Part shown: piece by piece, positions 12,717 through 43,152 of the stretch
How positions within the stretch are numbered: the first letter of the stretch is position 1
Layout: each line of letters opens with the position of its first letter
Source: Gemmatimonadota bacterium
GTDB taxonomy: Bacteria; Gemmatimonadota; Gemmatimonadetes; Longimicrobiales; Gaopeijiaceae
Direction: 5' to 3'
Length of the DNA: 64,000 bases
Assembly (NCBI GenBank): GCA_039591855.1
Contig: JBDHCV010000002.1
Span: forward strand, 1-64,000
The notes under the pieces: model-generated
What the model was told of the DNA's origin: nothing
Database searches by the model: none
What the model saw: the letters and a program-made list of their open reading frames with translations, nothing else
Program-made: the position numbers and the translations under genes

Positions 12717-12789
12717 GGGGCCTTAGCTCAGTTGGGAGAGCGCCTGCTTTGCAAGCAGGAGGTCGCCGGTTCGATCCCGGCAGGCTCCA
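12717..12789 (+). tRNA. tRNA-Ala (anticodon TGC)
   Basis: GGGGCCTTAGCTCAGTTGGGAGAGCGCCTGCTTTGCAAGCAGGAGGTCGCCGGTTCGATCCCGGCAGGCTCCA folds as a cloverleaf: 7-bp acceptor stem with one G-U, D-arm GCTCAGTTGGGAGAGC, anticodon loop CTTTGCAAG (TGC), T-arm GCCGGTTCGATCCCGGC. A terminator-like hairpin follows. Confidence 0.9.
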
Positions 12790-12919
12790 CTTTTACAAAG
12801 CTAGGCCCCGTTTGAGGTTACAGCCGCGGACGGGGTCTGGTGTTTCGGCCTGTGAGGCCGATGTGTCCATTTGATGTGTGAAGTGCTCCCCGATCCGCGG
12901 TGGGCTGCACCGTCGCTCT

Positions 12920-13261
12920 CTACTTCAGCTCTCGGAGAACCCTCTCCAGGCTCGGACGCAAGATCGGCACATCCGACACCGCCGTCTCCCAGACGATTTC
13001 GAGATCGACCACGAAGTACTCGTGAATCACCTTGTTGCGCATGCCGGCGATCTGGCGCCAAGGTATCTCGGGGTAGGCGTCGGTAACAGTGCCCGAGACC
13101 TTTCGAGCGGCCTCGCCCAGGACCTGTAGCTGCCGGAGCACGGCGTCCTGCTTCTCCGGATCGGCCCCGAACTGCTCCTCGGACACCCCCTCGACGTACC
13201 GCCCGATGCGATCCACCGCATCGAGCATGTGCTGGACCAGGACCTTGTCAGGATTCGGCAT
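12920..13261 (-). CDS. hepT: HepT-like (DUF86) toxin of a HepT/MntA toxin-antitoxin pair
   Basis: 113 aa with the Rx4HxY motif (RNKVIHEY). Overlaps the upstream nucleotidyltransferase gene by 14 nt. Confidence 0.8.
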   Translation of the reverse strand: MPNPDKVLVQHMLDAVDRIGRYVEGVSEEQFGADPEKQDAVLRQLQVLGEAARKVSGTVTDAYPEIPWRQIAGMRNKVIHEYFVVDLEIVWETAVSDVPILRPSLERVLRELK

Positions 13262-13538
13262 CGAAGAGCACGGTCGCCGAGGCGAGGATCGCCTCCTTCA
13301 TGTGCGGGCTCAGTCCTCGCTCGGTGACCAGGTCCACCTCACGACCGAAGAGCTTGGCAAGCTCGTCTTCGAGCTCGACGAACTCGAAGAACCCCCGACG
13401 TCCGTCATAGTCGACGATCAGATCGATGTCGGAGTCGGGGCGGTCCTCTCCCCTGGCTCCCGATCCGAAGATCCGAAGCCTCCGCACACCATATTCCTGG
13501 CACATACGTGCCAACCCTGATCGGTCGAAGTGAACCAT
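13248..13538 (-). CDS. mntA: MntA-like minimal nucleotidyltransferase antitoxin
   Basis: 96 aa with GSxxxG-type motif IFGSGARGE and DSDIDL, typical of the NTase-fold MntA partner of HepT. Confidence 0.8.
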   Translation of the reverse strand: MVHFDRSGLARMCQEYGVRRLRIFGSGARGEDRPDSDIDLIVDYDGRRGFFEFVELEDELAKLFGREVDLVTERGLSPHMKEAILASATVLFDAES

Positions 13539-13883
13539 GCTCCAATCTCCGCCGCCGGGGGCGATCCGGTCAACCTACAGGCCGGGATCATGCGAACGGT
13601 GGGGCGCTGCTGCCCGGGAGTGGGCCCCTCTCGAATAACTCGGCCCTCGAACGACTTTCACACCTGTATTGGCCTGACGTGACCCCCGAAGTTGCTCCCT
13701 GAAGGTGGACGCCTGCCAACGGGAGAGGGACACTTTCAGGCTCAGTCGAACTCACAAAGGACTGGCTCCGGCAAATCGGGGCGGTTCAGTCCTTCGGACC
13801 GCCGTCACGGCGCCCAAGCAGTGAGCCTGAACGGTCTTCCGAGAACCCCGGGGTAGTTCAGCCCAAGCTCCGGGCCGTCGCCG

Positions 13884-14321
13884 CTATCGCCGCCCACGAA
13901 CGAAGACGTGGTCGAAGTCATCATCGACAACGGTCATTAGCGTCAGCGTATCGCCGCTTAGGTGCACGACCCAGTCCGTATCCAATAGGAGTGGAGGGGA
14001 GTCAGACAGCACAAGAAGCGGCCCTCGCTCCTTAGAGCGGGCTGCCACATCTGTGCCCTGTACCAGAAATGTCCCGCGACCGACCACGGAATCGCCATCG
14101 AAGATAGAGAACTCACGCTCCCCAAAGCGCAGCTGCTGTCCTCGGCCGAGGGTCGTGTTGAAGCCCTCCAAGTGTCCACCGATTGCTGCGGCCCAGTCCC
14201 AATCGCCCACCAGAGAGGTCTCCTCCGATTCCCTCAACTCCCCGCCGCAAGCAACAAGGGCCAAGCCGAAGACCGAAATCAGGGGCCGTCTCAACGGCGA
14301 CTTCATGGCCAGACCCTCCAC
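13884..14321 (-). CDS. Small lipoprotein, putative immunity protein for the upstream HExxH RHS-CT toxin
   Basis: Lipoprotein signal LALVACGGE. Start overlaps the end of the orphan toxin cassette by about 19 nt. Position matches toxin-immunity pairs. Confidence 0.4.
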   Translation of the reverse strand: MEGLAMKSPLRRPLISVFGLALVACGGELRESEETSLVGDWDWAAAIGGHLEGFNTTLGRGQQLRFGEREFSIFDGDSVVGRGTFLVQGTDVAARSKERGPLLVLSDSPPLLLDTDWVVHLSGDTLTLMTVVDDDFDHVFVRGRR

Positions 14322-14830
14322 GAACTCAAGACGCGCTGGGTGTGGACCGCCTGGGCCCTAAGCCAGGGGGGTAGTCCGGCGAGAATGCGGGCCTGATCGG
14401 CGTAGATATCCCTATGCTCACTAACCGCCCTCCCTTGCCTGTGCTGAAGCTCATGCCACGCGGTCATGCCGATATCCACCGCATTGCCTACAGCAAGGTC
14501 GATCCGGACATAACCCCAAGGACCCTGACCGCGATTGCCACCGAGACTACCGGCAGCCACACGGTCGGACCTGTTGGTGAAGACCACGTCCACCTCAAGG
14601 TCTTCGTAGCCTTGGATCGCATCTTTCAATTGCGTCCGGGCTTCGTCGGAGAGTCCCGGTCTAACCAGAACACCCTTGAGGATGTTGATTACCGCACGGC
14701 ATTCGAGATCTTCCCGCCCCTCCTCCTCCTTACACAGCCCAAACGGATCCGAGAAGTTGATCGGATCCCCGCCGGCGTACCCGTAGAGGTTGAGCCCACC
14801 GGCGATCCCAATGGGATCTTGTTGGGTGAA
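14303..14830 (-). CDS. Orphan, 5'-truncated RHS repeat-protein C-terminal cassette: RHS core end followed by an HExxH putative metallopeptidase toxin domain. No ATG; the frame opens straight after a stop.
   Basis: Reverse-strand translation from 14830 gives SIGQFTQQDPIGIAGGLNLYGYAGGDPINFSDPFGLCKEEEG..., the RHS core terminal DPxGL motif, then a CT domain containing MTAWHELQH (HExxH). The track ORF 14303..14629 is the same frame with a TTG pseudo-start. Confidence 0.6.
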   Translation of the reverse strand, partial: FTQQDPIGIAGGLNLYGYAGGDPINFSDPFGLCKEEEGREDLECRAVINILKGVLVRPGLSDEARTQLKDAIQGYEDLEVDVVFTNRSDRVAAGSLGGNRGQGPWGYVRIDLAVGNAVDIGMTAWHELQHRQGRAVSEHRDIYADQARILAGLPPWLRAQAVHTQRVLSSWRVWP

Positions 14831-14836
14831 CTGCCC
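14733..14836. repeat. 104-bp direct repeat copy 1 (encodes the RHS core C-terminal end). About 99% identical to 15841..15944.
   Basis: cacagcccaaacggatccgagaagttgatcggatccccgccggcgtacccgtagaggttgagccc[a/g]ccggcgatcccaatgggatcttgttgggtgaactgccc occurs at both positions with one mismatch. Confidence 0.9.
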
Positions 14837-14982
14837 GATTGACGCACTTCAGCGTAACTCAGCCCGCTAAGTGCCCGACGTTTTTACTCTTGGCCGCTCA
14901 CTTTTTCTGAAATCACTTCGATTTCGCCGATATGCCCTGACGTGGGGCTTTAGGAGCTCTCCGCTGGGCGCGTTTCGGGCCA

Positions 14983-15351
14983 TTATCTACGACCCATCAA
15001 TTTCACCACGGCCGGGATCGAGAATAGCCCCAGCAAGGCGGCCGTGCCCCAACCCAATCCACCCCACCGGACCGACGGAATCGCAACGGCGCTCAGGACT
15101 ACGGCGAGGGTGCACTTCGCAACCAACCACGGGGATCGCCGACTGCCGCTGGCGATGAAGGCGATCGCCGCGAACCCAAACCCAGCCGCAGACACGACGG
15201 CCCTCATAGAGTTCCCGCGGTCACTCAGAGACTCCATGTCGAAGAACACGGGGATGAGAGCGTTAGCCGCCAACCCGATCACGATCGCCGTCATCGCCGA
15301 CGATATCTCTGGCACATCCGCCCCGCGCGAAGTCTCCGGCCCGTGGCTCAT
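14983..15351 (-). CDS. Small integral membrane protein, putative immunity protein for the glycine-zipper RHS-CT toxin
   Basis: 122 aa with 3-4 predicted TM helices. Start overlaps the stop of the upstream cassette by 4 nt (coupled). Confidence 0.4.
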   Translation of the reverse strand: MSHGPETSRGADVPEISSAMTAIVIGLAANALIPVFFDMESLSDRGNSMRAVVSAAGFGFAAIAFIASGSRRSPWLVAKCTLAVVLSAVAIPSVRWGGLGWGTAALLGLFSIPAVVKLMGRR

Positions 15352-16001
15352 CGGTTGACCGCGCCCTGAACCAGTCCGGCGACGAATCCCGCGAGCTCGC
15401 TCCGGCGATTCTCGAACACCTCCATCACCACCCCTCGGAATCGGTCCAGTTCAGCTCTCGGCACGCCTTGCGCCGCGTGGTGAGCCACGAACTCGTCGAG
15501 GTACCCAGGGAACGACTCCAGGGCCTCCCCGGCCACCCCTTCTAGGAGCTGGCCGCCGGCTTCGCCGAGGAATCCAAATACAGCGCCCTGAGCGATGTCA
15601 CCGCCGGACCCAAAGCTGCGCTGATCACCACCTCCCAGGAGCCCCCCGAGTCCTCCGATCGCAGCTTGCCCCATGAGCATCGCCGACTTCCCGACTTTCA
15701 GGGCCGCGAATTGCCCGGAGAGGGCTCCAGTCGCGCCTGCCGTAACAAGTGCATTGCCATTGAACGACCTACTGGCGGCCTGGGACAGGCCCTCGGTAAC
15801 AACCCCGACCACGCCACCGATCACCGCTGGGCACCACGGACACAGCCCAAACGGATCCGAGAAGTTGATCGGATCCCCGCCGGCGTACCCGTAGAGGTTG
15901 AGCCCGCCGGCGATCCCAATGGGATCTTGTTGGGTGAACTGCCCACTCGCCATCCCCCCCGCCGGTGCCGATTCCGGGATCCCCGGGGCCAGCCTCTGCA
16001 T
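15348..16001 (-). CDS. Orphan RHS C-terminal cassette: RHS core end (DPxGL) followed by a glycine-zipper, membrane-active putative toxin domain
   Basis: SGQFTQQDPIGIAGGLNLYGYAGGDPINFSDPFGLC is the RHS core end. The CT is rich in GxxxG repeats (VIGGVVGVV, AIGGLGGLLGGG), typical of pore-forming or ionophore toxin domains. Only about 17 aa precede the core motif, so this is an orphan module. Confidence 0.6.
   Translation of the reverse strand: MQRLAPGIPESAPAGGMASGQFTQQDPIGIAGGLNLYGYAGGDPINFSDPFGLCPWCPAVIGGVVGVVTEGLSQAASRSFNGNALVTAGATGALSGQFAALKVGKSAMLMGQAAIGGLGGLLGGGDQRSFGSGGDIAQGAVFGFLGEAGGQLLEGVAGEALESFPGYLDEFVAHHAAQGVPRAELDRFRGVVMEVFENRRSELAGFVAGLVQGAVNR
15841..15944. repeat. 104-bp direct repeat copy 2 (RHS core end)
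   Basis: See copy 1 at 14733..14836. Confidence 0.9.
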
Positions 16002-16038
16002 TACCCATGCCCGACCTACTCACAACCTGGAGGTCGGC

Positions 16039-16962
16039 ATGGCACACCACACCATGGGCGCATGGGTCGAATCGCACCTAGAATGGCTGGAGGCGAAGGG
16101 ATATGCGAGGGGCACGATCCAATCGCGGCGGGGATACCTTCGGAAGTTCGTCGCTTGGAGCGCTGGACAGGGCGCGACGCAGCCGCATGACTTCGCGCTC
16201 CCGCTCATCGAGGCCTACCGGGTCCACCTCCACACGCTCCGGCGCCGGGACGGTGCTCCGTTGGGCTGGGGTTCGCGGGCGCAACCGCTCCTGGCGATCC
16301 GGGGGCTCTTCCGCTGGCTGACTCTCACCGGGGAGTTGAGCTCGAACCCGGCGGCGGACGTGGAGTTGCCACGTCGGGGACGCCGCCTGCCGCGTCGGGT
16401 GCTCTCCGCGTCCGAGGTCGAGCGGGTCCTCGCCCTGCCGAACATCCGGACCGGGACGGGCCTACGGGACCGCACGATCCTCGAAGTCCTCTACTGGACG
16501 GGGATCCGCCGGGCCGAATGCGCGAACCTCGACCTCAGGGATCTCGACCTGGGCCGTGGCGTCCTGCTGATCCGAGATGGAAAGGGAGCCCGGGACCGGT
16601 TCGTCCCCCTGGGCCGTCGGGTCACCGTGTGGCTGACTCACTACATACGGCGGGGCCGTACGTCCCTCCTCAAGAGCGGCGACCCCGGCGCGCTCTTCCT
16701 ATCCCGGCTGGGAGGCCAGATCAGTGTGAAGCGGCTGGGGGCCATGGTACACGATGCCCTTTGGGCGGCGGGGCTGGGCGGAGGCGGGGCGTGTCACCGG
16801 TTTCGGCACACGGTGGCCACGCTGATGCTGGAAGGCGGCGCGGACATCCGCGACCTGCAGGAACTGCTCGGCCACGAGCAGCTGAACACCACGGCGCTCT
16901 ACGCGCGGGTGTCGATCCAACGACTGCAGGAGGTGCATCGACGCACGCACCCGGCCTGGTGA
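16039..16962 (+). CDS. Site-specific tyrosine recombinase/integrase (XerC/XerD-like)
   Basis: N-terminal SAM-like core-binding domain, catalytic domain with R...HxxR (HRFRHTVAT) and C-terminal LLGHEQLNTTALYARV carrying the Tyr nucleophile. Start at the ATG of MAHHTMGAW; the track ORF begins earlier at a non-ATG codon. Confidence 0.85.
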   Translation: MAHHTMGAWVESHLEWLEAKGYARGTIQSRRGYLRKFVAWSAGQGATQPHDFALPLIEAYRVHLHTLRRRDGAPLGWGSRAQPLLAIRGLFRWLTLTGELSSNPAADVELPRRGRRLPRRVLSASEVERVLALPNIRTGTGLRDRTILEVLYWTGIRRAECANLDLRDLDLGRGVLLIRDGKGARDRFVPLGRRVTVWLTHYIRRGRTSLLKSGDPGALFLSRLGGQISVKRLGAMVHDALWAAGLGGGGACHRFRHTVATLMLEGGADIRDLQELLGHEQLNTTALYARVSIQRLQEVHRRTHPAW

Positions 16963-17063
16963 TCGGGAGGGTTGAAACCGGGGTATTCCTGGGGCGAAAG
17001 GTGGGCCACTTGGGCCGGATAATGGGCCTTTTCAGGGCGGCAGATTCCGGCATCGCGAGGCGG

Positions 17064-17180
17064 CAAGAACGGCAGATCGTGCGCTCTACCAATGAGTTAG
17101 ACGTGTTCTTGCCGTGATTCGGCTTGGCCGATTATCGATTTGCAGGCAGGAGGTCGCCGGTTCGATCCCGGCAGGCTCCA
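17064..17180 (+). repeat. Composite tRNA-derived repeat, copy A. A 9-bp-stem hairpin holds an inverted tRNA D-arm-like segment, then a spacer, then a direct copy of the tRNA-Ala 3' half (17139..17180). attR-like.
   Basis: ggcaagaacggcagatcgtgcgctctaccaatgagttagacgtgttcttgcc is a hairpin (ggcaagaac/gttcttgcc) whose loop resembles the reverse complement of the tRNA D-arm (GCGCTCTCCCAACTGAGCTAAGG). ttgcaggcaggaggtcgccggttcgatcccggcaggctcca matches the tRNA-Ala 3' 42 nt with one mismatch. Confidence 0.8.
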
Positions 17181-17193
17181 CTGGCGTAAGGCG

Positions 17194-17226
17194 AAGCCCC
17201 GTAGTCGTTTAGGCTGCGGGGCTTTT
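17194..17226 (+). terminator. Hairpin plus short T-tract after repeat copy A (intrinsic-terminator-like). A homologous hairpin follows copy C at about 43043..43075.
   Basis: aagccccg...cggggctt 8-bp stem followed by ttctgtg. Confidence 0.35.
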
Positions 17227-17488
17227 CTGTGTCAAGCCCGGACTGTGCCACATCCTAACGTTCGCACTGGTCTCGTTTCAGGGGGTCACGTCACCGGAGG
17301 GATGATCCAGACGGGCACGGGCGGAGTTGACCCCTGAGGGGGGACAACTGTCCTACGCCACGGAGACCGGAGCGCACTTCGCCCGCGCTTGCAGCCCTAA
17401 ATCCGACTGTGCCAGAAACTGTGCCAGATTCGGGAGAAACTAACCCGGAAAAGGAGTTCTGGGCTGGACCTCGGCTCATCTCAGGGGG

Positions 17489-18877
17489 TCATGACCGCTC
17501 GCCGCGATTGGACCGGAAGAACTCGTGGTAGTGCTCCCGTAGTGCCTCGCGTAGCACGGTCTCGAAGGCGAGCAGCTCGAACCGTTGCTCCTTCCCAAGG
17601 GACTGGAGGAAGGGCGAGCGGTGGAAGCAGCGAAGGAAGATCCGGGGCTGCTCGGACTCCCGCCGAAGGACCAGTCCCGCGCGGAGGTTCACGAGCTCGT
17701 CCGACTCGCACAGCAGATAGATCGGGGTGCCCTCGATGGAGCTGACCTGAGTACCGACGGCCTCCCATGTACCCGGGTCGTCCAGGTCGAGATCGAGACC
17801 AAGAATCGGGACTGAAGTATCGCCCACGTCTGCCTTGAACCGTCGCAGGTGCAGAGTCGCCTCCGGGTCCACTACAACGACGGCCGCCAACTCGGCTCCC
17901 GCCTCCTTCAGCAGGAGTTCGAGAATGGTCTGGGCAAATCGACCGAATCCGGCCAATACGACGATGTCCCGCGCTTCCGTGGCCTCGAAATGAAGAGCGA
18001 GATGGATCTGATAAAGGTACGAAGCCGTCACCTGACGGGTATTGAACCCTTTGGGCACGGTGTGCCCCTTTGCTGCCCGCTCCACCGGGCGGAGCAGGGC
18101 GAGGTCTCCGACGTGGACCGCGATGGGTAGGTCCGGGGCGCCTGACTGGGCCGACCAGGCCAACTCCAGATTCGCCAGGTCGTCGTCCGTGACGACCACG
18201 AGGCCGAGAGCACCCTCGAGATGCAGAGGCGCCAATGCGTCCTCCCCCGCTCCAGACAGTCGGACGGTCTCCACGTCCGTCAGCTCTTCTGACCGATCGA
18301 CCTCGTCGGCCAGGAGGACCGGCACCTCCGGGTCCAACGATCGAATCGCGTTCAGGTAGATCCGTCCGATCGGGCCTCCCCCGACCACCACCATGTGCCC
18401 GCTCGATCGTCTCTTGAACCACTGGGGCCGAACGAGCTTGAGAAACGCCTCGGCGACGGCCGTCGTGGTGAGGGTGGGAGCGAGGAAGTAGGCCAGCCAG
18501 AGCATTCCGCGTCCCGCGGCGGACCCGCCGGTGGGTACCCCCAGGTCCAGCCCTCCGAAGACGAAGAGCCCCCCCGCATAATAGATCCAGGCGATCCACG
18601 GGTCCGAGGCGAGGGCAGGCCGCTCGCTGGTACCGACGCCAGTCGCGAATGCGACACCCGCCAGGACGAATACGGACAGGAAGGCGATCCATCGGAAGGA
18701 GCGCAGTGTCCGGGCGACCCGCTGGAGGGTGAGGCTCACCGTTGCGAAACCGGATTCAAGTGCCGGGAGCCACGCCCGCTGCCTCGCGGACCAGGGCGGT
18801 GACCACGGCTCGCCGGTCCTCGGAAACGGCGGCAATGAACGGTCCCGAGTGGGACACCGGATCCACCGCTCTACCAT
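17489..18877 (-). CDS. Two-TM ion-channel-like membrane protein with a cytoplasmic TrkA-N/RCK (Rossmann) domain and no GYG selectivity filter. The true start is probably downstream of the annotated ATG because the first ~120 nt overlap the IMPase gene.
   Basis: TM1 FRWIAFLSVFVLAGVAFATG, pore-helix-like WIAWIYYAGGLFVFGG, TM2 MLWLAYFLAPTLTTTAVAEAF, then HMVVVGGGPIGRIYLNAI (GxGxxG NAD-binding fold of RCK/TrkA-N). Confidence 0.55.
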   Translation of the reverse strand: MVERWIRCPTRDRSLPPFPRTGEPWSPPWSARQRAWLPALESGFATVSLTLQRVARTLRSFRWIAFLSVFVLAGVAFATGVGTSERPALASDPWIAWIYYAGGLFVFGGLDLGVPTGGSAAGRGMLWLAYFLAPTLTTTAVAEAFLKLVRPQWFKRRSSGHMVVVGGGPIGRIYLNAIRSLDPEVPVLLADEVDRSEELTDVETVRLSGAGEDALAPLHLEGALGLVVVTDDDLANLELAWSAQSGAPDLPIAVHVGDLALLRPVERAAKGHTVPKGFNTRQVTASYLYQIHLALHFEATEARDIVVLAGFGRFAQTILELLLKEAGAELAAVVVVDPEATLHLRRFKADVGDTSVPILGLDLDLDDPGTWEAVGTQVSSIEGTPIYLLCESDELVNLRAGLVLRRESEQPRIFLRCFHRSPFLQSLGKEQRFELLAFETVLREALREHYHEFFRSNRGERS

Positions 18878-19673: not shown

Positions 19674-19677
19674 CGCA

Positions 19678-34948: not shown

Positions 34949-35136
34949 GCCGACTCCTATCGCGAATTGGCCTCCTGGAGAGGCGCGGGCCGGACTCCCC
35001 GGCTTATAGTCGCCTCACCGTAAGCCCTAGCAACCATCGCGACAAGGCGCCGGCCAAGCGCTTCCCGAGCCGCGGATCAGCGCCGAAAAGAAAGGTGAGG
35101 GGGGTAAACAGACCGTCAGCGGCAGGTTGCTGCGAC

Positions 35137-36274: not shown

Positions 36275-36759
36275 GCTGACCAACCTCTGACGACGGGCGG
36301 CGCCTTCGGGTGTCGCCCGTTTCGTATCCGTGCTCCTGGAGCGGGGGGGGACTTCAGGTCGTGGATCGGGACCTGCTACCCTTGGTCGCACTTTCGCTGA
36401 CGCGGAACCCTGCTGCTAGCCCGGAAAGGCGGTGGCCCGCCCGGGTAGGGAGGGGAACGCCCCCTAAGTGAAGATCCTCAGACGCTGCTCTAGGGTCCGG
36501 CAATCCAAGATGCCCGTCGAATTGAGGATCTCGCCGTCGAAGACCTTGCCCCCAGTCCGCTCAAGCCACTCCTCGCAGAGCCACCTCAGGTCCTCAGCTG
36601 GGATCACGGCCCGGTCCCGTCTGAGCCACCTGGAACCCTGGCCCGGCCATCCACGACGCACTCTCCGCACCCTGCGTACGCAACCCGACGGACGGTGTCG
36701 CGGTCGCAATCGCGCACCATGGCGGTGCAGGCTGATCGAACCGTCGCACCCTACAAACC

Positions 36760-37137
36760 ATGAACGCGCGCTTCGGCATCGCTACCATCGCGATCACCCT
36801 CCTGCTTGGGGGCTGTCGGACCATGGCTGAGACGAGTCCGTTTCAACCCGGTCCTAGCACCGAGGTTACCACGGTCCCAGCAATCTCCACTGGTCACGTT
36901 GAAGTGTCGGGGCCGTCGGATTCCGCGTCCGTGGATGGCACCAACCTCCCGGTCTGCACGAGCACCGGCGCTCGGTACGAGGATTCTCCCGAACACCAGT
37001 GGATTCACCTCGCTGGAGCCGTCATCGAGCCGTGGCTCTTCACGGTCACCGAAGCCGTCTTCGTAGGGTTTGCTTACATCTGGGTCAGAACGGATTGGAT
37101 CTACTTCTGCCGACCATCCTATGAGTGTTCGCTGTAA
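36760..37137 (+). CDS. Hypothetical lipoprotein
   Basis: MNARFGIATIAITLLLGGC lipobox. 125 aa. Confidence 0.4.
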   Translation: MNARFGIATIAITLLLGGCRTMAETSPFQPGPSTEVTTVPAISTGHVEVSGPSDSASVDGTNLPVCTSTGARYEDSPEHQWIHLAGAVIEPWLFTVTEAVFVGFAYIWVRTDWIYFCRPSYECSL

Positions 37138-37359
37138 CGGCGGCCTGCACGGCCTCACGCCGCGTCTCCCGTCAGTTCACGCACCGCGTCAGCGAACGAC
37201 TCACGACGGGCCTGCATCCAGAGCTTGATCGCATCGCCACCCTCGCCACACGGGAAGCAATACCAGACGCCCTTGTCGGGATCGATGGCAATGCTTGGGT
37301 CGTGATCGTCATGCAGGATGTCCTGCTAGCAGGATCGCGGTCCCTCCCCTCTGGAATCC

Positions 37360-40050
37360 TCAACCGCCGCCTTCGCCGCTCCGGAGCCGTTCGGTCCAGT
37401 TCATGACCACCACCGCTTCGCCGGTGGCCCCGGATCTCCCGCGGAGGACCATGAGGAAACGCTGTCCGTCGTCCGACACGTCGTACTGGGTGCTGAAGAT
37501 GTTGGACCCGAAGTCGAGCCCGGAGAAGAGGACCTGCTGGCGCGTCACACGGAACGACGGCTCGGTGACCACCGAAGCCGCGACGATGTCCCCGTTTCCG
37601 TTCCGGTAGAAGAGTTCCCCGCCCGAACGCCCCCACGCGGGCTCCGTTCCTCCCTCCGTGGACACCCGGTAGACGGCCGCGTCGGCATCGGGAAAGGGGC
37701 GGACGTAGACCTCGTTGGATCCCCCCTCGTCGGAGACGTACGCCAGCCAGCGGTGGTCCGGGCTCACGGCCGGAGTGAGCTCGCCCGCCTCCGTGGCCAC
37801 CAGGGGCGTGACGGTGGTCGTCGCCCCCATCTCCACCAGGAGGATGTCCCCGGCGCCGGGCTCCTGGTTGTCCGTCCGGATCACGAGGCGCTGGGCGTCC
37901 ACGGGGACCACCTCGAAGATCGCCCGGGTCTCGGGGATGACCACGGCCTCCGGTAGGCCTGTGGCGTCCACACGCTTTCGGTAGACAGCGCCCACGCTGG
38001 CTCGATCGGAGATGAAGTAGACCGCCTCCCCCGAGGGGGACCAGTTCAGCCGCCAGTTCAGCTCGCCTTGGAAGGTGTGGCGAACCGCATCTCCACCCCC
38101 GAGCGGCTTGGTCCAGATGTGCGTCCCCTCCTCGGACTGGACCACGGCGGCCAACACCGACCCGTCCGGAGAGATCCGTACGCCCGCGAGCGTGCTCCTC
38201 ACGTCCGGCAGGAGCCCATCCTCGGTGGCGCCGGTCCGATCCACCCAGACGAGGTCGTCCACCGCGTCCCCGGCTCCCCGGTAGACGAGGGTGCCCGCCT
38301 CGGCCAGGGCCAACCGAGCGGCGCCGTACGCCACCACGTCCACCGTCTCCTGAAGAGCTAGAGGGGCGCCGGTGACCTCGAGCCGGTCGGCGTCGAAGCG
38401 GGCCGCGAGCAAGGTTCCGTCCGCCTGAGCCACCACCACGTGTCCGGTGGGGGAGTAGCGGGCGTAGACCCCCTGGAAGAGGGCCTGGATCCGGGAGTTG
38501 GCGAAGTCGACGACGGCGACCTGATAGGCGTCGAGATTCCGGGAGGCCATGGGGATGACCGTCATCAGCGCGCCTCTTCCCGAGGGCAGGGCGTCCACCC
38601 ACGCGTGGGTCCGTTCTCCCTCCGACAGGGTGGTGATGCGCTCCCGGCTCCCGTCTTCGGGTGAGACCCTCCACACGCCATCCAGCATGGAGACGTAGAT
38701 GAGTCCGTCCTCGCCCCAGTCCACGCCCCCTCCATACAGGCTCGGATCCTGGACGCCGGAATCCACGAGCGTCCTGGGGAGCCCACCGGCGATAGTGACG
38801 ACCTTCAGTTCCAGGAGCGTCGTCAGAAAGGCCAGGGACTCCCCGTCAGGGGAGAACGACACGCAACAGCGCACGTCGCCGGTGCCTCGCACCGGCACGG
38901 GGTCGAGTCTGTCCCGCTCCCGGATCATCACCTGGGGCAGCGCTCCGGTCACGCTGGCGAACGCGATCCGGCTTCCGTCCGGGGAGATGGCCAGCCCCGG
39001 ATCGAAGAAGGCTCCGCCGCCTGCCTCCCGGTCGCCAGGGAGGTCGATGATGAAGCGGGTGACGTCCCGGTCGGGCTCCGGGGGACGCCCGGTCAGGAGT
39101 GCGGCGACCGCCACGGTGAGGATCCCGACGGCCACGGCGAGACCAGTGGTGACTGGCGTCCATGTCCGGGCTGGGGCAGCCCCGGGACGGCCCGGGATCA
39201 TCCGGCCCGTGAATCCGGGGTCCAGGAGGGCGGCCCGAAAGTCCCCGGCGGTCTCGAATCGGTCGGCCGGGAGCTTCTCCACGGCCTGCGCCACTGCCGC
39301 CGCCACGTTGGGCGGGACCGACCTGCGGAGCCGGGTCACCGGGCCCGCTTCCTCGGTGAGAATCTTCATGATGACCTGCTGGACCGACGCGCCGGTGTGC
39401 GGCGGGGCGCCGGTGAGCATCTCGTAGAGGACGCTCCCCAGGGAATAGATGTCGGCCCGGGCGGTCAGGTCCCGGTCCGCCGTCGCCTGCTCCGGGCTCA
39501 TGTAATGCGGCGTCCCCAGGCTGAGCCCCGTCTCCGTCATGCGCCCTTGGCCGGCGGCGCTCACGGCCAGCGCGATCCCGAAGTCGGCGACCACGGGCCG
39601 GCCGTCCTGCAGCAGGATGTTCTCCGGCTTGATGTCCCGGTGGATGATCTCCTTGCGGTGGGCGTAGTCCAGGGCGTCGGCCACGTCCCGGGCGATGCGA
39701 ACGGCCTCTTCCACCCCCAGTTGCCCCTCCCGGTCGATGCGCTGCCGGAGCGTCTCGCCCTCGATGTAGGGCATGACGTAATACAGGAACGAGTCCGCTT
39801 CGCCCGAGTCGAAGAGCGGCAGGATGTGGGGGTGCTGCAAGTTGGCCGTGGTCTTGATCTCCGCCAGGAACCGCTCGGCACCCAGGACGGCGGCGAGTTC
39901 GGGACGGAGGACCTTGATGGCGACCTTGCGGTCGTGCTTGAGATCCTCGGCCAGGTGGACGGTGGCCATGCCGCCCTGGCCGAGCTCCCGCTCGATGCGG
40001 TAGCGGTCGGCCAGAGCTGCGGCGAGGCGCGAGGGCTGTGTATCGCTCAA
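37360..40050 (-). CDS. Ser/Thr protein kinase fused to a C-terminal TolB-like beta-propeller (WD40-like) region, paralog 1. Probable TTG start overlapping the stop of the upstream paralog; the track ORF extends to 40146.
   Basis: Kinase subdomains ELGQGGMATVHLAED, DRKVAIKVL, HRDIKPENILL, DFGIA, SPEQ. One TM after the kinase domain, then repeated propeller blades. Confidence 0.7.
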   Translation of the reverse strand: MSDTQPSRLAAALADRYRIERELGQGGMATVHLAEDLKHDRKVAIKVLRPELAAVLGAERFLAEIKTTANLQHPHILPLFDSGEADSFLYYVMPYIEGETLRQRIDREGQLGVEEAVRIARDVADALDYAHRKEIIHRDIKPENILLQDGRPVVADFGIALAVSAAGQGRMTETGLSLGTPHYMSPEQATADRDLTARADIYSLGSVLYEMLTGAPPHTGASVQQVIMKILTEEAGPVTRLRRSVPPNVAAAVAQAVEKLPADRFETAGDFRAALLDPGFTGRMIPGRPGAAPARTWTPVTTGLAVAVGILTVAVAALLTGRPPEPDRDVTRFIIDLPGDREAGGGAFFDPGLAISPDGSRIAFASVTGALPQVMIRERDRLDPVPVRGTGDVRCCVSFSPDGESLAFLTTLLELKVVTIAGGLPRTLVDSGVQDPSLYGGGVDWGEDGLIYVSMLDGVWRVSPEDGSRERITTLSEGERTHAWVDALPSGRGALMTVIPMASRNLDAYQVAVVDFANSRIQALFQGVYARYSPTGHVVVAQADGTLLAARFDADRLEVTGAPLALQETVDVVAYGAARLALAEAGTLVYRGAGDAVDDLVWVDRTGATEDGLLPDVRSTLAGVRISPDGSVLAAVVQSEEGTHIWTKPLGGGDAVRHTFQGELNWRLNWSPSGEAVYFISDRASVGAVYRKRVDATGLPEAVVIPETRAIFEVVPVDAQRLVIRTDNQEPGAGDILLVEMGATTTVTPLVATEAGELTPAVSPDHRWLAYVSDEGGSNEVYVRPFPDADAAVYRVSTEGGTEPAWGRSGGELFYRNGNGDIVAASVVTEPSFRVTRQQVLFSGLDFGSNIFSTQYDVSDDGQRFLMVLRGRSGATGEAVVVMNWTERLRSGEGGG

Positions 40051-42716
40051 CGGCCGGCTCCGCGCATGATCCGGTTCACTTCCTCCAACCAGTTCTCCAC
40101 GATGACCAGCGCCGGCTCGTCCTGCGCACCGACCTGGTCCCTCCATCGCACCAGCAGGAACCGGGAGTCGTCCGGGCTGACGTCGAAGGAGCGGTAAAAC
40201 TCTACCTCTCGGTAGCCAGCTGCGCTGAACAGGACCTGCTGTTCACCCCGCTGGAACACCGCGCCCGGCAGCACCGCCTGCGAGGCCAGCTCCCGGTTGC
40301 TGTTGATGAAGAAGAGCTCCCGCCCGCTGTGGGCCCACACCGGGCTCGTGCCGCCGGCGTTCGAGACCTGCCACTTGCCCGCCTCCACGTCGGGGAACGG
40401 CCGCACGAACACCTCCCGCCGTCCCGTCTCCGTGGACACGTAGGCCAACCAGCGTCCATCGGGTGAGAGCGCGGGCGAATCTTCATCGTAGGGCGCCACC
40501 AACAGTGGGCGGGGCACCGTATCCTGCCCCACCCGGAGCGCCACGACATTGCGCAGGTTGTCGCCCGTGCCCGTCCGCATGACGATCCATTGTCCGTCCC
40601 GGGACCGATGGGCCTCCCATATCGCGGCCTCGAGGTCGAGCACGAGGGAATCTGCTCCGGTCCCGTCCGCCCGACGCTGGTAGAGGTCGAAGTCCCCGCC
40701 GCGATTGGAGAGGAAGGTCACAGCGCGGCCATCCGGCGTCCAGCGCGGTCGAATCTCCTGGGACTCAGTGAAGGTGAGCCGCGACACCGGGCCCTCGTCC
40801 AGTTCTTTGACGAAGACGTCCGCGTTCGCTTCGATCCGCGGGGTGATGGCAAGGCGTGTTCCGTCGGGAGAGAGCGCCCAACCGGGAAGATTGTCTTCGA
40901 GCCGAAGACCCCATGCCGTATCGACCGGTTCGGCCCGGCCATCTCGGGACACCCACACCGCCTCACTCGCCAACCCCGATCCGCCCCCGGCGAGGTAGAC
41001 AAGTGTGCCCGAGGCGGCGAGCGAGATCTGTGCACGGTTTGTCACGGTCACGCCTTCGAAGAGCGGCACTGGAGCTCCCGTCACACTGAGCGTACCCAGG
41101 TCGAACGGCGCCCCGAACACGGCGCCGTCCCGTCGCGCGAAGAGCAGTCGGCCATCCGCGTACGCCGCCCAGGCCACGTCCGGCAGCAGCAGCTTCACCT
41201 CGCCGGAGCGGCCGTCGGCCACCCAGAGCTCGGAGGTCGGCACGCAGCTTGCCGAGCAGTGGGTGAACAGGATCCCCCGGCCATCCGGCAGGGCCGCCAT
41301 GGCACCGGCGAACCGCCCGGCTTCCGGCGTGAACACCACTTCCGAGTTGCCTCCGCCCGCGGGCATGCGCCGCAAGCGCCACTCGCCGTCCTGGTAGGCG
41401 ACGGTCCCGTCGTCCAGCCAGATGGCGACCCCCTGGGCGGTGTCTGCGATCGTCGTGGCGACACCGCCGTTCGCCGGAATCCTCCACAGTCGGCCGGCGG
41501 CGATGAAGCCAATCCACTCCCCGTTCGGTGACACGGAGGGGATCTGGGCTCCCGTCGTGCCGGCCAGCGGTGTCGCTTCCAGCCGATCGCGAGCCTTCAC
41601 CCACAGCTGCGTCTCCCCGGGGGCGTCGCCGGGTCCCGTGTAGACCAGCCACGACCCGTCCGGAGCAACATTCAACTGCGGGTATTCGCTGATGACCAGT
41701 GAACGGTCCGGCGGGATCGTCAGCGCGTACCGGGTCACCGGCTTCGGGGGCGGCCGCAGGAGGGCCCACGTAGCGACGGCAGCGAAGAGGAGCGTAGTCG
41801 CGGCGAGCCCGGCGGTGAGAACGGAACGGCGGCGGGCCGGCGGGGCGGTCGCGCCCACCGCACCGGCGGTCGCGGTCGTGAAGGTCAGGTCGCCCAGTGC
41901 GTGGGCGAATTCCCTTGCCGTGTCGAATCGGTCCGCCGGCAGCTTCTCCAGGGCCTTCGCCAGCGCGGCCGCCACGTTCAGCGGCACCGAACCGCGTAGC
42001 TCCGTCACCGGCTGCGCCCGCTCGGCGATGATCTTCATGATGATCGCCTGCGCCGAGTTGCCCATGTGCGGCGGCTCGCCCGCCAGCATCTCATACAAGA
42101 CGCTGGCCAGCGAATACACGTCGCTCCGCGCCGTGATCGCCTTGTCCGCCGTCGCCTGCTCCGGGCTCATGTAGTGTGGCGTGCCCAGGCTCAGCCCCGT
42201 CTCCGTCATCCGCCCGCCCGCCGCCGCGCTCACCGCCAGCGCGATCCCGAAGTCCATCACCATCGCCCGCCCGTCGTGCAACAGGATGTTCTCCGGCTTG
42301 ATGTCCCGATGGATCACCCCGTTCCGGTGTGCATAGTCCAGCGCGTCCGCCACCTCCGTCGCGATCCGCACCCCATCCTCGATCCCGAACTGCGTGTCCC
42401 GATCCAGCTTCTCACGGATCGTCTCGCCCTTGATGTAGGGCATGACGTAGAACAGAAAGCTGTCCGCTTCACCGGAGTCGAACAGCGGTAGGATGTGGGG
42501 GTGCTGCAGGCTCGCCGTCGTCTTGATCTCCTGCACGAATCGATCGGCGCCCAGGACGGCGGCCAACTCGGGCTTGAGGACCTTGATGGCGACCTTGCGA
42601 TCGTGCTTCAGGTCTTCGGCCAGATACACCGTGGCCATCCCCCCCGCGCCGAGCTCGCGCTCGATGCGGTAGCGGTCGGACAGGGCGGCGTTGAGACGGG
42701 AGGGGATGTCGGTCAT
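40047..42716 (-). CDS. Ser/Thr protein kinase fused to a TolB-like beta-propeller region, paralog 2 (start at MTDIPSRLNAALSDRYRIEREL)
   Basis: Same architecture as paralog 1 (kinase domain about 70% identical by eye). The 67-codon extension in the track ORF lacks features. Confidence 0.7.
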   Translation of the reverse strand: MTDIPSRLNAALSDRYRIERELGAGGMATVYLAEDLKHDRKVAIKVLKPELAAVLGADRFVQEIKTTASLQHPHILPLFDSGEADSFLFYVMPYIKGETIREKLDRDTQFGIEDGVRIATEVADALDYAHRNGVIHRDIKPENILLHDGRAMVMDFGIALAVSAAAGGRMTETGLSLGTPHYMSPEQATADKAITARSDVYSLASVLYEMLAGEPPHMGNSAQAIIMKIIAERAQPVTELRGSVPLNVAAALAKALEKLPADRFDTAREFAHALGDLTFTTATAGAVGATAPPARRRSVLTAGLAATTLLFAAVATWALLRPPPKPVTRYALTIPPDRSLVISEYPQLNVAPDGSWLVYTGPGDAPGETQLWVKARDRLEATPLAGTTGAQIPSVSPNGEWIGFIAAGRLWRIPANGGVATTIADTAQGVAIWLDDGTVAYQDGEWRLRRMPAGGGNSEVVFTPEAGRFAGAMAALPDGRGILFTHCSASCVPTSELWVADGRSGEVKLLLPDVAWAAYADGRLLFARRDGAVFGAPFDLGTLSVTGAPVPLFEGVTVTNRAQISLAASGTLVYLAGGGSGLASEAVWVSRDGRAEPVDTAWGLRLEDNLPGWALSPDGTRLAITPRIEANADVFVKELDEGPVSRLTFTESQEIRPRWTPDGRAVTFLSNRGGDFDLYQRRADGTGADSLVLDLEAAIWEAHRSRDGQWIVMRTGTGDNLRNVVALRVGQDTVPRPLLVAPYDEDSPALSPDGRWLAYVSTETGRREVFVRPFPDVEAGKWQVSNAGGTSPVWAHSGRELFFINSNRELASQAVLPGAVFQRGEQQVLFSAAGYREVEFYRSFDVSPDDSRFLLVRWRDQVGAQDEPALVIVENWLEEVNRIMRGAGR

Positions 42717-42913
42717 GGCGGGGGGATTCGAGGATTGGCGCAAGATTCGCCTCGCGCAGGTAGGTCCGCAAGTAGTCAGACGCCGGAAGGCGCCGTGGGG
42801 CCGATGCTTCTGACGGGCCCGGAGTCCACGTCCCGGTTGCAGGTACGTACCGGTGTCCACTTGGGCCCGATATTGGGCCCCATCAGGGCTGCAGATCCTG
42901 GCCTCGCCGGGCG

Positions 42914-43029
42914 ACAAGAACGGCAGATCGTGCTCTCTACCAACGAGTTAGACGTGTTTTGCCGTGATTCGGACTAACCGATTATCGATTTGCAGGCAGG
43001 AGGTCGCCGGTTCGTTCCCGGCAGGCTCC
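42914..43029 (+). repeat. Composite tRNA-derived repeat, copy C (tRNA-Ala 3' half at 42988..43029 with 2 mismatches). Flanks are also homologous to copy A over about 75 bp on each side.
   Basis: gacaagaacggcagatcgtgctctctaccaacgagttagacgtgttttgccgtgattcggactaaccgattatcgatttgcaggcaggaggtcgccggttcgttcccggcaggctcca. Upstream gtgtccacttgggcccgatattgggcc... and the downstream hairpin aagccccgcagtcggttcggctgcggggctt match the copy A flanks. Confidence 0.8.
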
Positions 43030-43152
43030 ACTGCCCCAAGTCCAAGCCCCGCAGTCGGTTCGGCTGCGGGGCTTCGGTATTCTGGACACGGACCGTGCCA
43101 GAGAGTGTGTCGGATTCCCCGAGAATCCGGTCCCTACCGCCTCTTCGAGGCC

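What the first reader, a model, noticed from the sequence alone, without database searches (positions are those of the whole stretch)
12717..43115. Intact tRNA-Ala followed by three same-orientation copies of a composite repeat ending in the tRNA-Ala 3' half (at about 17.1, 35.2 and 43.0 kb)
Each copy consists of a conserved ~45-nt segment whose loop resembles an inverted tRNA D-arm (in copies A and C it forms a 9-bp-stem hairpin), a ~28-nt spacer, and then 42 nt matching the anticodon-stem-to-acceptor 3' half of the tRNA-Ala gene with 0-2 mismatches. Each copy is followed by a terminator-like hairpin. Direct repeats of a tRNA 3' half downstream of the intact gene are the hallmark of integrase-mediated insertion at the tRNA (attL/attR). 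Three copies suggest a tandem array of successively integrated elements at the same tRNA-Ala hotspot. Only the first segment retains an integrase. The second would then contain glnA-glnK-amtB and the signalling operon, which is unusual cargo. Alternatively these copies are a dispersed tRNA-derived repeat family.
Basis: seen in the sequence. Interest (0 to 1): 0.7.

Follow-up and report, generated by a model that had tools for sequence, protein, structure and literature searches.

The report
Tandem genomic islands at tRNA-Ala
A tRNA-Ala gene in an uncultured, probably Gemmatimonadota, bacterium is followed by three leftover integrase attachment sites that bound about 30 kb of inserted DNA, including a nitrogen-assimilation gene block; this is a well-known kind of genome architecture, here with one contig that suggests the sites still recombine.

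Summary
tRNA-Ala(TGC) lies at 12717-12790. Three same-strand copies of its last 42 nt sit at 17139-17180 (A), 35206-35247 (B) and 42989-43030 (C), with 1, 0 and 2 mismatches. The 42 nt run from the first base of the anticodon loop to the discriminator base. Each copy is preceded by a conserved arm and followed by a hairpin.

These are attR-type scars of a tyrosine-recombinase element family that targets the anticodon loop of tRNA-Ala. They form an accreted array:
- a 4.3-kb integrase + HepT/MNT element;
- an 18-kb block of foreign composition (amtB-glnK-glnA and signalling genes);
- a 7.6-kb segment with two Ser/Thr kinases.

New evidence: a contig from a sister sample joins the left half of A to the right half of C. 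The exchange maps to 37 nt that include the anticodon loop. GC3 of all 13 genes between A and B is shifted (0.785 vs 0.86, p=3e-5). The unit is not a dispersed repeat.

Not shown: an empty site, a circular form, or three separate integrations. Unexplained: a 47-nt arm core conserved in distant MAGs, and a strain variant that has lost exactly the tRNA 5' half. This is a new member of a known kind, of modest interest.

The parts
12717..12790 (+). Intact tRNA-Ala(TGC). In the att model this is attL: the 5' half is native and the 3' 42 nt (12748-12789) are the shared core.
   Evidence: ARAGORN; Rfam tRNA 70.6 bits; sequence.
12791..17005 (.). Segment 1, a 4.2-kb small integrative element. It carries HepT toxin (12920-13261 -), MNT antitoxin (13248-13505 -), five ORFs with no family match, and the integrase. 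GC3 is 0.68-0.83.
   Evidence: Pfam; JGI gene calls on identical contigs; GC3.
16054..16962 (+). Tyrosine recombinase, 302 aa, XerC/D-like, with no extra N-terminal arm-binding domain. The R..K..HxxR..H..Y motifs are present. It is transcribed toward copy A.
   Evidence: PF00589 1.2e-34; translation; exact match to P0001 'integrase/recombinase XerD'; PHROG integrase.
17006..17226 (+). Copy A module: arm 17006-17138 (conserved 47-nt core 17069-17115; GGATAATGGGCC 17017-17028; GATTATC 17130-17136), core 17139-17180 (TTTGCAG variant), hairpin + T tail 17196-17226.
17227..35133 (-). Segment 2, 18 kb, with all genes on the minus strand: TrkA_N, IMPase, TCAD9-kinase-NUDIX, cNMP-gated channel, two SpoIIE/HATPase proteins, STAS, protoglobin-STAS, dCache-HAMP-STAS, Band7, glnA, PII (glnK), amtB. 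No integrase. GC3 is 0.785+/-0.017.
   Evidence: Pfam; GC3 and Mann-Whitney p=3e-5 against flanks.
35134..35300 (+). Copy B module, truncated on the left: arm 35134-35205, core 35206-35247 (TTTGCAA, identical to the tRNA), hairpin 35261-35294.
35301..42856 (.). Segment 3: a low-GC stretch with ORFs of no known family (35.3-37.3 kb), then two tandem paralogous Ser/Thr kinase-PD40 genes (37360-40146 -, 40047-42716 -) with host-like GC3 (0.85-0.87).
   Evidence: Pfam; repeat D1; GC3.
42857..43076 (+). Copy C module: arm 42857-42988 (core 42920-42965 with a 1-nt deletion), core 42989-43030 (TTTGCAG variant plus a T-loop A-to-T change), hairpin 43046-43072. It is followed by the 3' end of the patatin gene at 43153.
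17128..17164 (+). The 37-nt interval (equivalent to 42978-43014 in C) in which the A x C exchange seen in contig L019 must have occurred. It contains the anticodon loop.
   Evidence: Alignment A4; megablast; coordinates.

Best explanation
The locus is an accreted array of site-specific integrative DNA at a tRNA-Ala gene.

A tyrosine recombinase (16054-16962) of a small element recombines at the anticodon loop of tRNA-Ala. Each integration rebuilds the tRNA from the element's own copy of the 3' 42 nt. It leaves the displaced 3' part, preceded by the element's arm, as an attR-type scar. Copies A, B and C are three such scars from related elements.

Segment 1 (integrase + HepT/MNT) is a live-looking element. 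Segments 2 and 3 are integrase-less, att-flanked DNA (CIME-like). They can still be deleted, or inserted, by recombination between co-oriented sites, most readily between A and C, which share the same loop variant TTTGCAG.

Segment 2, carrying amtB-glnK-glnA, is horizontally acquired DNA. It may be a stretch of a relative's chromosome that lay next to that relative's tRNA-Ala.

Shown: the repeats and their exact boundaries, the adjacent integrase, the compositional break, and an A/C hybrid joint in a sister population.

Inferred: that the integrase made the joints, that the crossover lies in the loop, and the order of events.
For: (1) The 42-44-nt identity starts at the first anticodon-loop base and runs to the tRNA end in all three copies. 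This matches the known anticodon-loop class of tRNA att sites (10.1101/2020.11.02.365908, read).

(2) The integrase has all catalytic motifs and ends 44 nt before the arm of copy A. Its 55-58% relatives sit in HTH-primase-integrase mobile modules.

(3) Segment 1 carries a HepT/MNT toxin-antitoxin pair.

(4) All 13 genes between A and B have GC3 of 0.755-0.82, against 0.86 for 18 flank ORFs, p=3e-5. The shift starts and stops at A and B.

(5) Contig L019 (JGI 3300041075) is 100% seg1+arm-A up to 17127. It then carries C's T-loop T and 60 nt of C-specific downstream sequence. The exchange lies within 37 nt that include the loop. The TrkA_N protein of segment 2 was not found on any contig of that sample, while the integrase was.

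(6) Contig L035 (sample 3300041085) breaks 3 nt from the point where the arms of A and C diverge. Other contigs break at the proven 1.1-kb indel.

(7) There are only three copies in 64 kb, all co-oriented downstream of the tRNA. No other copy occurs in about 100 kb of population contigs, and only two contigs among 185,579 species genomes carry the arm.

(8) In MAG contigs L001/L002 the arm is followed by CGATTTGTCAGCAGGGGGG. Similarity persists through the loop and the 3' anticodon-stem strand and then stops, as expected for a secondary integration site.
Against: No empty tRNA-Ala site was found. Relatives of the left-flank gene (62%, 47% identity) and of the patatin gene (78%, 72%) have no tRNA-Ala nearby and little synteny.

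No circular junction was seen.

L019 shows only 76 nt of C-type sequence before it ends. Gene conversion of A by C, without loss of segments 2+3, is therefore not excluded.

The exchange interval is also the longest identical block between A and C, so RecA-type recombination would land there too.

The sequence left of the loop in the copies (GATTATCGA) is not an inverted match of the right half-site GCAGGAGG.

The integrase lacks an arm-binding domain, so the function of the long conserved arm is unexplained.

The kinases of segment 3 look native in composition, and a kinase-start + arm pairing is shared with a distant MAG.

A's downstream region is 82% identical to C's. A simple 'element arm vs native flank' model does not predict this.
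Confidence: 0.7

Rival explanations
1. The repeated 220-nt modules are only patches of homology. Segments were imported from a related genome, or rearranged, by RecA-dependent homologous recombination between tRNA-Ala-linked modules. The integrase plays no present role. On this view L019 is a homologous deletion or gene-conversion product.
For: A and C are homologous over about 220 nt on both sides of the tRNA half (86% upstream, about 82% downstream). The L019 exchange lies in the longest perfect block, 37 nt. The uniform GC3 of segment 2 fits a chunk of a relative's chromosome.
Against: This does not explain how modules ending exactly at the anticodon loop arose in the first place. It does not explain why an integrase abuts one of them, or why similarity in L001/L002 stops just after the loop and half-site. 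A 37-nt identity is near the lower limit for efficient RecA recombination (general knowledge).
Confidence: 0.15
2. The composite unit is a gene in its own right: a small RNA with a tRNA-like 3' end, or a 31-codon peptide gene. It would be present in three paralogous copies, each with its own terminator, and its link with the integrase would be secondary.
For: The 47-nt core is 44/45 identical between copy A and MAG contigs L001/L002, while neighbouring arm sequence is about 65% identical and the tRNA-like part has decayed. This implies selection on the core itself. Every copy is followed by a hairpin. One + strand frame is open, with the start (ATG/TTG) and stop (TGA/TAA) at the same places in A, C and L002.
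Against: No Rfam family matches. Folding z-scores are -0.2 to -2.2. The 9-bp stem is not maintained by compensatory changes. No sigma-70-like promoter was found. The tRNA-like 3' part is not conserved in L001/L002. In the upstream half of the ORF, 4 of 12 changes are synonymous, which is indistinguishable from neutral. Copy B lacks the ORF start.
Confidence: 0.08
3. The copies are former full tRNA-Ala genes (duplicates) that each lost the 5' half by a small deletion, like the variant seen in contig L027. On this view they are not recombination scars.
For: L027 (sample 3300041087) has lost exactly the 32 nt from just before tRNA position 1 to the last base before the anticodon loop. The junction has the same right boundary as copies A-C. 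The 7-mer GATTATC lies upstream both of the intact tRNA (12 nt before it) and of each copy's core.
Against: Apart from GATTATC, the arm shows no convincing homology to the tRNA's upstream region. The L027 deletion has 4-nt microhomology (TGCT), so it may be unrelated slippage. The model does not explain the integrase, the composition break or the A/C hybrid.
Confidence: 0.05

Closest known systems
Tandem accretion of integrative elements with cis-mobilizable elements (CIMEs), e.g. ICESt1/ICESt3-related islands of Streptococcus thermophilus (review PMC5704250, read)
   Same: An integrase-encoding element lies next to integrase-less segments that keep att sites. The array is built by site-specific integration into an existing att site. 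Composite excision patterns are possible. The A x C hybrid joint fits cis-mobilization of segments 2+3.
   Different: No conjugation or mobilization genes are present here. The target is a tRNA-Ala anticodon loop. The host is an uncultured, probably Gemmatimonadota, lineage. Mobility is inferred from one metagenomic contig, not shown experimentally.
Tycheposons of Prochlorococcus (10.1101/2020.12.28.424599, read)
   Same: Tyrosine-recombinase elements sit at tRNA genes and are flanked by partial tRNAs. Successive integrations push older elements and remnants further into an island. The cargo is nutrient-assimilation cassettes (nitrate there, amtB-glnK-glnA here). Populations are heterogeneous for presence or absence.
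   Different: Segment 1 has no replication module; primase genes occur only next to 55-58% integrase relatives elsewhere. The phylum is different. No sequence relationship was tested.
Anticodon-loop class of tRNA att sites (Williams 2002 classification, as summarised in 10.1101/2020.11.02.365908; example ICEAfe1)
   Same: [quoted passage not shown] The island lies downstream of the intact gene.
   Different: The integrase is a short XerC/D-like protein. The element-side sequence next to the loop does not mirror the anticodon stem. A long, strongly conserved arm containing an inverted tRNA-5'-half-like stretch accompanies the core.
ssrA-specific genomic islands of Dehalococcoides (PMC3146451; abstract only, seen)
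   Same: Islands carrying metabolic cargo integrate site-specifically at the 3' end of a tRNA-like gene.
   Different: The target gene is tmRNA, not tRNA-Ala. I did not read that paper's details.

Membership tests
tRNA-targeting integrative genomic island (tyrosine recombinase, anticodon-loop sublocation) | Intact tRNA gene at one end and a direct repeat of its 3' part at the other end | tested here: met
   tRNA at 12717-12790 and three co-oriented 42-44-nt repeats with 0-2 mismatches; 0 expected by chance.
tRNA-targeting integrative genomic island (tyrosine recombinase, anticodon-loop sublocation) | Identity block begins in the anticodon loop and runs to the 3' end of the tRNA | tested here: met
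   Identity starts at T of TTTGCA(A/G), the first loop base. The 5' strand of the anticodon stem is not shared.
tRNA-targeting integrative genomic island (tyrosine recombinase, anticodon-loop sublocation) | Tyrosine recombinase gene with catalytic R-K-H-R-H-Y next to an att site | tested here: met
   PF00589 1.2e-34. TGIRRAE, GKGARDR, HRFRHT, LLGH and LYARV motifs are in the translation. The stop codon is 44 nt before the arm of copy A.
tRNA-targeting integrative genomic island (tyrosine recombinase, anticodon-loop sublocation) | Presence/absence polymorphism: an empty site or a deletion joint in related genomes | tested here: inconclusive
   No empty site in relatives of either flank. One A-left/C-right hybrid joint was found (L019), but only 76 nt of the C side are visible.
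tRNA-targeting integrative genomic island (tyrosine recombinase, anticodon-loop sublocation) | Excised circular form with an attP junction | not testable with these tools
   This needs raw reads or PCR. The collection DNA scans were exhausted and no read data are available.
tRNA-targeting integrative genomic island (tyrosine recombinase, anticodon-loop sublocation) | Composition different from the host chromosome | tested here: met
   Met for segments 1 and 2 (GC3 0.68-0.83 and 0.785, against 0.86 in flanks; p=3e-5). Not met for the two kinase genes of segment 3 (0.85-0.87).
CIME / tandem accretion array | att-flanked segment without its own recombination or transfer genes, adjacent to an element whose integrase uses the same att | tested here: met
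   Segments 2 and 3 have no integrase or transfer-gene hits in the Pfam (both segments) or PHROG (segment 3 ORFs only) scans. They are bounded by A/B and B/C, which share arm and core with the integrase-proximal copy A.
CIME / tandem accretion array | Demonstrated excision or transfer of the composite | tested here: inconclusive
   The L019 hybrid joint is consistent with loss or gain of segments 2+3 (25,850 bp), but no contig spans it on the right side.
Tycheposon | Tyrosine or serine recombinase together with a replication module (primase/helicase) in the element | tested here: not met
   No primase or helicase in segment 1. Such modules occur only beside 55-58% integrase relatives in other metagenomes.
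MITE/REP-like dispersed tRNA-derived repeat | Many copies scattered through the genome without link to the parent tRNA | tested here: not met
   Exactly three copies in 64 kb, all downstream of the tRNA and co-oriented. Two contigs in 185,579 species genomes carry the arm, and no true match occurs in the metagenome or viral scans. The whole source genome could not be scanned.
Structured non-coding RNA gene | Match to a curated family, or conserved structure with compensatory changes and unusual stability | tested here: not met
   Rfam gives only the tRNA at gathering threshold and nothing credible at E<=10. Z-scores are -0.96, -2.15, -0.84 and -0.23. Stem changes in C and L002 are not compensatory. 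Only four distinct sequences are available, so power is low.

The most novel reading that the evidence does not exclude
The 47-nt core of the arm (ACGGCAGATCGTGCNCTCTACCAAYGAGTTAGACGTGTTCTTGCCGT) is a functional element in its own right. Its reverse complement mimics a tRNA 5' half up to the anticodon loop. It may be a small RNA, a peptide-coding end, or an accessory recombination site. It has been kept by selection in distant Gemmatimonadota genomes even where the integrase, the tRNA half and the neighbouring gene have decayed. Together with the strain variant that has lost exactly the tRNA 5' half, this would point to an unrecognised interplay between tRNA halves and this element family, rather than to passive att scars.
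Probability: 0.12. Interest if true: 0.7.

Novelty: new member of a known kind. Interest (0 to 1): 0.33.

Why it matters
The locus shows that tRNA-linked island accretion operates in a poorly studied, uncultured lineage, probably Gemmatimonadota. This process is well documented in Firmicutes, Proteobacteria and Prochlorococcus.

A complete ammonium-uptake and assimilation cassette (amtB-glnK-glnA) with a large signalling operon sits inside an att-bounded block of foreign composition. That block may be gained or lost as a 26-kb unit within a natural population.

If confirmed by read mapping, the locus would be a natural example of nitrogen-metabolism genes behaving as a plug-in cassette. It would also give defined att sequences for a short XerC/D-like integrase that targets a tRNA anticodon loop.

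Tried and rejected
(1) Known RNA family. Rfam at gathering threshold on the whole window, and at E<=10 on copy A, gave only the tRNA.

(2) Permuted or two-piece tmRNA, or split tRNA. ARAGORN finds no tmRNA. The inverted 5'-half-like piece and the 3' half cannot pair into one tRNA. Rejected.

(3) Stable RNA structure. Folding z-scores are unremarkable and there is no covariation.

(4) Dispersed repeat. Pattern scans of genome, metagenome and viral collections found only L001/L002; the other 13 loci are chance 19-mer hits. nhmmer over all held DNA found nothing new. blastn against plasmids and phages found nothing.

(5) Empty site through flanking genes. Relatives of the 388-aa left-flank protein and of the patatin gene lack tRNA-Ala and lack synteny.

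(6) Other junctions through exact-protein look-ups of the integrase, left-flank protein, patatin and TrkA_N. Only L019 (hybrid) and L027 (5'-half deletion) differ from the window.

(7) Integrase relatives as a guide to the att site. The 55-58% relatives have no tRNA and no arm motif, only dif-like palindromes. Viral relatives are at most 37% identical.

(8) Excisionase or mobilization genes in segment 1, and annotation of segment 3 ORFs. No Pfam or PHROG hits.

(9) Sigma-70 promoter and strict terminator scans at the units. None found.

(10) Small ORF through the core. The frame is open and start and stop are conserved, but the substitution pattern is not distinguishable from neutral.

Full report
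**Observation**

The window has one tRNA gene, tRNA-Ala(TGC), at 12717-12790 on the + strand (ARAGORN; Rfam 70.6 bits). Its last 42 nt are TTTGCAAGCAGGAGGTCGCCGGTTCGATCCCGGCAGGCTCCA (12748-12789). They recur on the same strand at:
- 17139-17180 (copy A, 1 mismatch);
- 35206-35247 (copy B, 0 mismatches);
- 42989-43030 (copy C, 2 mismatches).

The next two bases (CT) are also shared. Shuffled sequence gives no such matches. The identity begins exactly at the first base of the anticodon loop. The 5' strand of the anticodon stem (CCTGC) is replaced by ATCGA in all three copies.

Each core is preceded by a conserved arm. It spans 72 nt in all three copies and 133 nt between A (17006-17138) and C (42857-42988), which are 86% identical. 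Each core, like the tRNA itself, is followed by a G+C-rich hairpin with a T-rich tail. The four downstream regions are recognisably related, and A and C are about 82% identical over 44 nt. None of them meets the strict terminator scan.

- The 9-bp stem is perfect only in A.
- The spacer is 25 nt.
- The most conserved part is a 47-nt block bounded by ACGGCA/TGCCGT (17069-17115).

The reverse complement of that block (…GTCTAACTCATTGGTAGAGCGCACGA TCTGCC…) looks like a tRNA D-arm plus the 5' strand of an anticodon stem, and the likeness stops at the loop. There is no fourth copy in the window.

**Surroundings**

Segment 1 (12791-17005) carries a HepT/MNT toxin-antitoxin pair, five ORFs with no family match and a 302-aa tyrosine recombinase (16054-16962, +). 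The recombinase is XerC/D-like, has all catalytic motifs and stops 44 nt before the arm of copy A.

Segment 2 (17227-35133) is one minus-strand block. It carries:
- TrkA_N, an inositol monophosphatase and a TCAD9-kinase-NUDIX fusion;
- a cNMP-gated channel;
- an RsbU-type partner-switching set (two SpoIIE/HATPase proteins, STAS, protoglobin-STAS, dCache-HAMP-STAS);
- Band7, glnA, PII and amtB.

Segment 3 (35301-42856) has about 2 kb of low-GC DNA without recognisable genes, then two tandem paralogous Ser/Thr kinase-PD40 genes. A patatin-like gene follows copy C.

**Composition**

GC3 of the 13 genes of segment 2 is 0.785 +/- 0.017. For 18 ORFs in the two flanks it is about 0.86 (Mann-Whitney p = 3e-5). 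The genes of segment 1 range from 0.68 to 0.83. The two kinases of segment 3 are host-like at 0.85-0.87. The shift therefore starts at the tRNA, persists to copy B and is bounded by the repeats.

**Distribution of the unit**

A 22-base pattern from the arm found only two contigs among one genome each of 185,579 species. Both are from Gemmatimonadetes MAGs (SZUA-318 and SZUA-440; L001, L002) and they are near-identical to each other. A 19-base pattern in the metagenome and viral collections gave only chance hits. Plasmid and phage collections gave nothing. This is not a high-copy dispersed family.

In L001/L002 the arm is 81% identical to copy A over 137 nt, but the 47-nt core is 44/45 identical. 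Similarity continues through CGATTTG and GCAGG(G)GG, that is, through the loop and the 3' strand of the anticodon stem. It then stops, with no T-arm or acceptor sequence, no tRNA and no integrase on those short contigs. Next to the L002 arm lies a 26-codon relic of a kinase N-terminus (MSDIRTRIQSALDGRHRIGHDLGQGG). It matches the start of the kinase that abuts copy C.

**Population variants**

Exact-protein look-ups recovered the same arrangement in several JGI metagenomes, 3300041074 to 3300041087. Two contigs differ.

(i) L019 (sample 3300041075, 2,341 nt) is identical to the window from 14901 through the integrase and the arm of copy A, up to the last A-specific base (17127). After 37 shared bases (CCGATTATCGATTTGCAGGCAGGAGGTCGCCGGTTCG) it carries the C-specific T in the T-loop and 60 nt of C-specific downstream sequence. 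The contig then ends. It is thus an A-left/C-right joint, the product expected if the 25,850 bp between A and C are deleted or had never been inserted.
- The T-loop change (A58 to T) would cripple a tRNA, so the right half derives from a pseudo-copy, not from a working gene.
- A and C share the loop variant TTTGCAG, whereas the tRNA and B share TTTGCAA. For a tyrosine recombinase, which needs identical overlap regions (general knowledge), A x C is a compatible pair.
- The TrkA_N protein of segment 2 was not found in that sample, although the integrase was.
- Contig L035 from another sample ends 3 nt from where the arms of A and C diverge. Other contigs end at a proven 1.1-kb indel. This suggests a branch in the assembly graph at that joint.
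- Caveats: only 76 nt of C-type sequence are visible, so gene conversion cannot be excluded. The 37-nt interval is also the longest perfect block between A and C.

(ii) L027 (sample 3300041087) lacks exactly 32 nt, from one base before tRNA position 1 to the last base before the anticodon loop. No tRNA is detected there. The right boundary coincides with the boundary of copies A-C. The deletion ends share 4 nt (TGCT), so slippage is the simplest cause. I leave the coincidence unexplained.

**Search for an empty site**

Relatives of the left-flank 388-aa protein (62% and 47% identity) and of the patatin gene (78% and 72%) have no tRNA-Ala nearby and share almost no gene order with the window.

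**Integrase relatives**

Proteins 55-58% identical to the integrase lie in HTH-regulator / ~1000-aa primase / integrase modules. These are followed by palindromes of the form GCATAATGG-N3-CCATTATGC. There are no tRNAs and no arm motif. The window arm contains GGATAATGGGCC (17017-17028) and a near inverse, GGCCGATTATC (17126-17136), flanking the 47-nt core. The shared ATAATGG is a lead for binding sites, not a result.

**Interpretation**

The best-supported explanation (confidence about 0.7) is an accreted array of site-specific integrative DNA at tRNA-Ala:
- Copies A-C are attR-type scars of related elements whose recombinase exchanges strands in the anticodon loop.
- Segment 1 is the element that still has its integrase.
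- Segments 2 and 3 are integrase-less, att-bounded DNA comparable to cis-mobilizable elements (review PMC5704250).

The anticodon-loop-to-3'-end repeat is a recognised class of tRNA att site (10.1101/2020.11.02.365908). Arrays of partial tRNAs with nutrient-assimilation cargo and population heterogeneity are described for Prochlorococcus tycheposons (10.1101/2020.12.28.424599).

Rather than three integrations into the tRNA, segments 2+3 behave as one unit bounded by A and C, entering or leaving an attR-type site. The region downstream of A resembles a tRNA-Ala terminator from a related genome, segment 2 has uniform foreign GC3, and its genes are of housekeeping type. Segment 2 may therefore be a stretch of a relative's chromosome that lay beside that relative's tRNA-Ala and was captured between att sites. 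That last step is inference.

**Rivals**

(a) Homologous recombination between the 220-nt modules with no current role for the integrase (0.15). This fits the position of the L019 exchange but does not explain the origin of modules ending at the loop.
(b) The unit is an RNA or small-peptide gene (0.08). The selective conservation of the 47-nt core is a real argument. However, there is no Rfam match, no notable stability, no compensatory change and no promoter. The tRNA-like part is not conserved in L001/L002, and the 31-codon frame shows a neutral-looking substitution pattern.
(c) The copies are tRNA-Ala duplicates that lost their 5' halves as in L027 (0.05). Apart from the 7-mer GATTATC, the arm is not homologous to the tRNA's upstream region.

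**Verdict**

The locus is a new member of a known kind: tRNA-linked tandem islands, or CIME-type accretion.

What remains odd:
- the strongly conserved, inverted tRNA-5'-half-like core of the arm;
- its survival in distant MAGs next to a decayed core;
- the strain variant that has lost precisely the tRNA 5' half.

These are worth a look if reads or more genomes become available, but they do not change the overall modest interest.

Noticed in passing
window 12716-12747; locus L027 (JGI 3300041087 Ga0452219_046531): One population contig lacks exactly the 32 nt that form the 5' half of tRNA-Ala. The junction is GTTCGTTGC|TTTGCAAGCAGG, at the first anticodon-loop base, the same boundary as in copies A-C. 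The deletion ends share TGCT. ARAGORN finds no tRNA there.
   Followed up: partly
window 14732-14836 and 15840-15944; loci L018/L025: A 105-nt 99% direct repeat inside segment 1 brackets a 1,108-bp indel polymorphism. Contigs from sample 3300041081 lack the intervening DNA and have a fused 180-aa ORF instead of four small ORFs.
   Followed up: partly
window 17069-17115, 35136-35182, 42920-42965; L002 2598-2644: This 47-nt block is 44/45 identical between the window and distant Gemmatimonadetes MAGs, while adjacent sequence is about 65% identical. Its reverse complement resembles a tRNA 5' half ending at the anticodon loop. One + frame is open, with start (ATG/TTG) and stop (TGA/TAA) at conserved positions (…ERQIVxSTNELDVFLP*).
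   Followed up: partly
L002 2330-2410 (minus strand) and window about 42640-42716 (minus strand): L002 keeps a 26-codon relic of a Ser/Thr kinase N-terminus, fused in frame upstream of a signal-peptide hydrolase gene, beside its arm copy. The kinase gene beside copy C starts with the homologous peptide. The kinase-start + arm pairing is therefore older than either genome's present gene content.
   Followed up: partly
window 19678-23648 (minus strand): A TCAD9-kinase-NUDT9-like NUDIX fusion protein sits next to a cyclic-nucleotide-gated ion channel, an inositol monophosphatase and a TrkA_N protein. This could be a nucleotide-signalling or conflict-system module within segment 2.
   Followed up: no
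window 24009-30101 (minus strand): A large partner-switching operon: two SpoIIE-phosphatase/HATPase proteins, a STAS protein, a protoglobin-STAS fusion and a dCache-HAMP-STAS sensor. It lies immediately upstream of Band7-glnA-glnK-amtB in the same orientation.
   Followed up: no
L020 6994-7474, L021 6922-7306, L022 6994-7282: Downstream of integrases 55-58% identical to the window's, in HTH-primase-integrase modules, lie dif-like palindromes GCATAATGG-N3-CCATTATGC. The window arm has GGATAATGGGCC (17017-17028) and a near inverse GGCCGATTATC (17126-17136).
   Followed up: partly
window 39239-39538 and 41908-42207: The two Ser/Thr kinase-PD40 genes of segment 3 are tandem paralogues, 78% identical over 300 nt and about 79-80% over 600-800 nt.
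   Followed up: no
L035 end (= window 42975); L019 ends (= window 14901 and 43091); L038 end (= window 16940): Contig ends in sister samples cluster at or next to polymorphic joints. L035 stops 3 nt from where the arms of A and C diverge, which suggests both joints coexist in sample 3300041085.
   Followed up: no
L001 3655-3745 and L002 2825-2870: A 31-nt unit cgctccgggggacacggcgcgcatagcgcgc occurs twice in tandem in L001 and once in L002. It is a small repeat-number difference between two otherwise near-identical MAG contigs.
   Followed up: no
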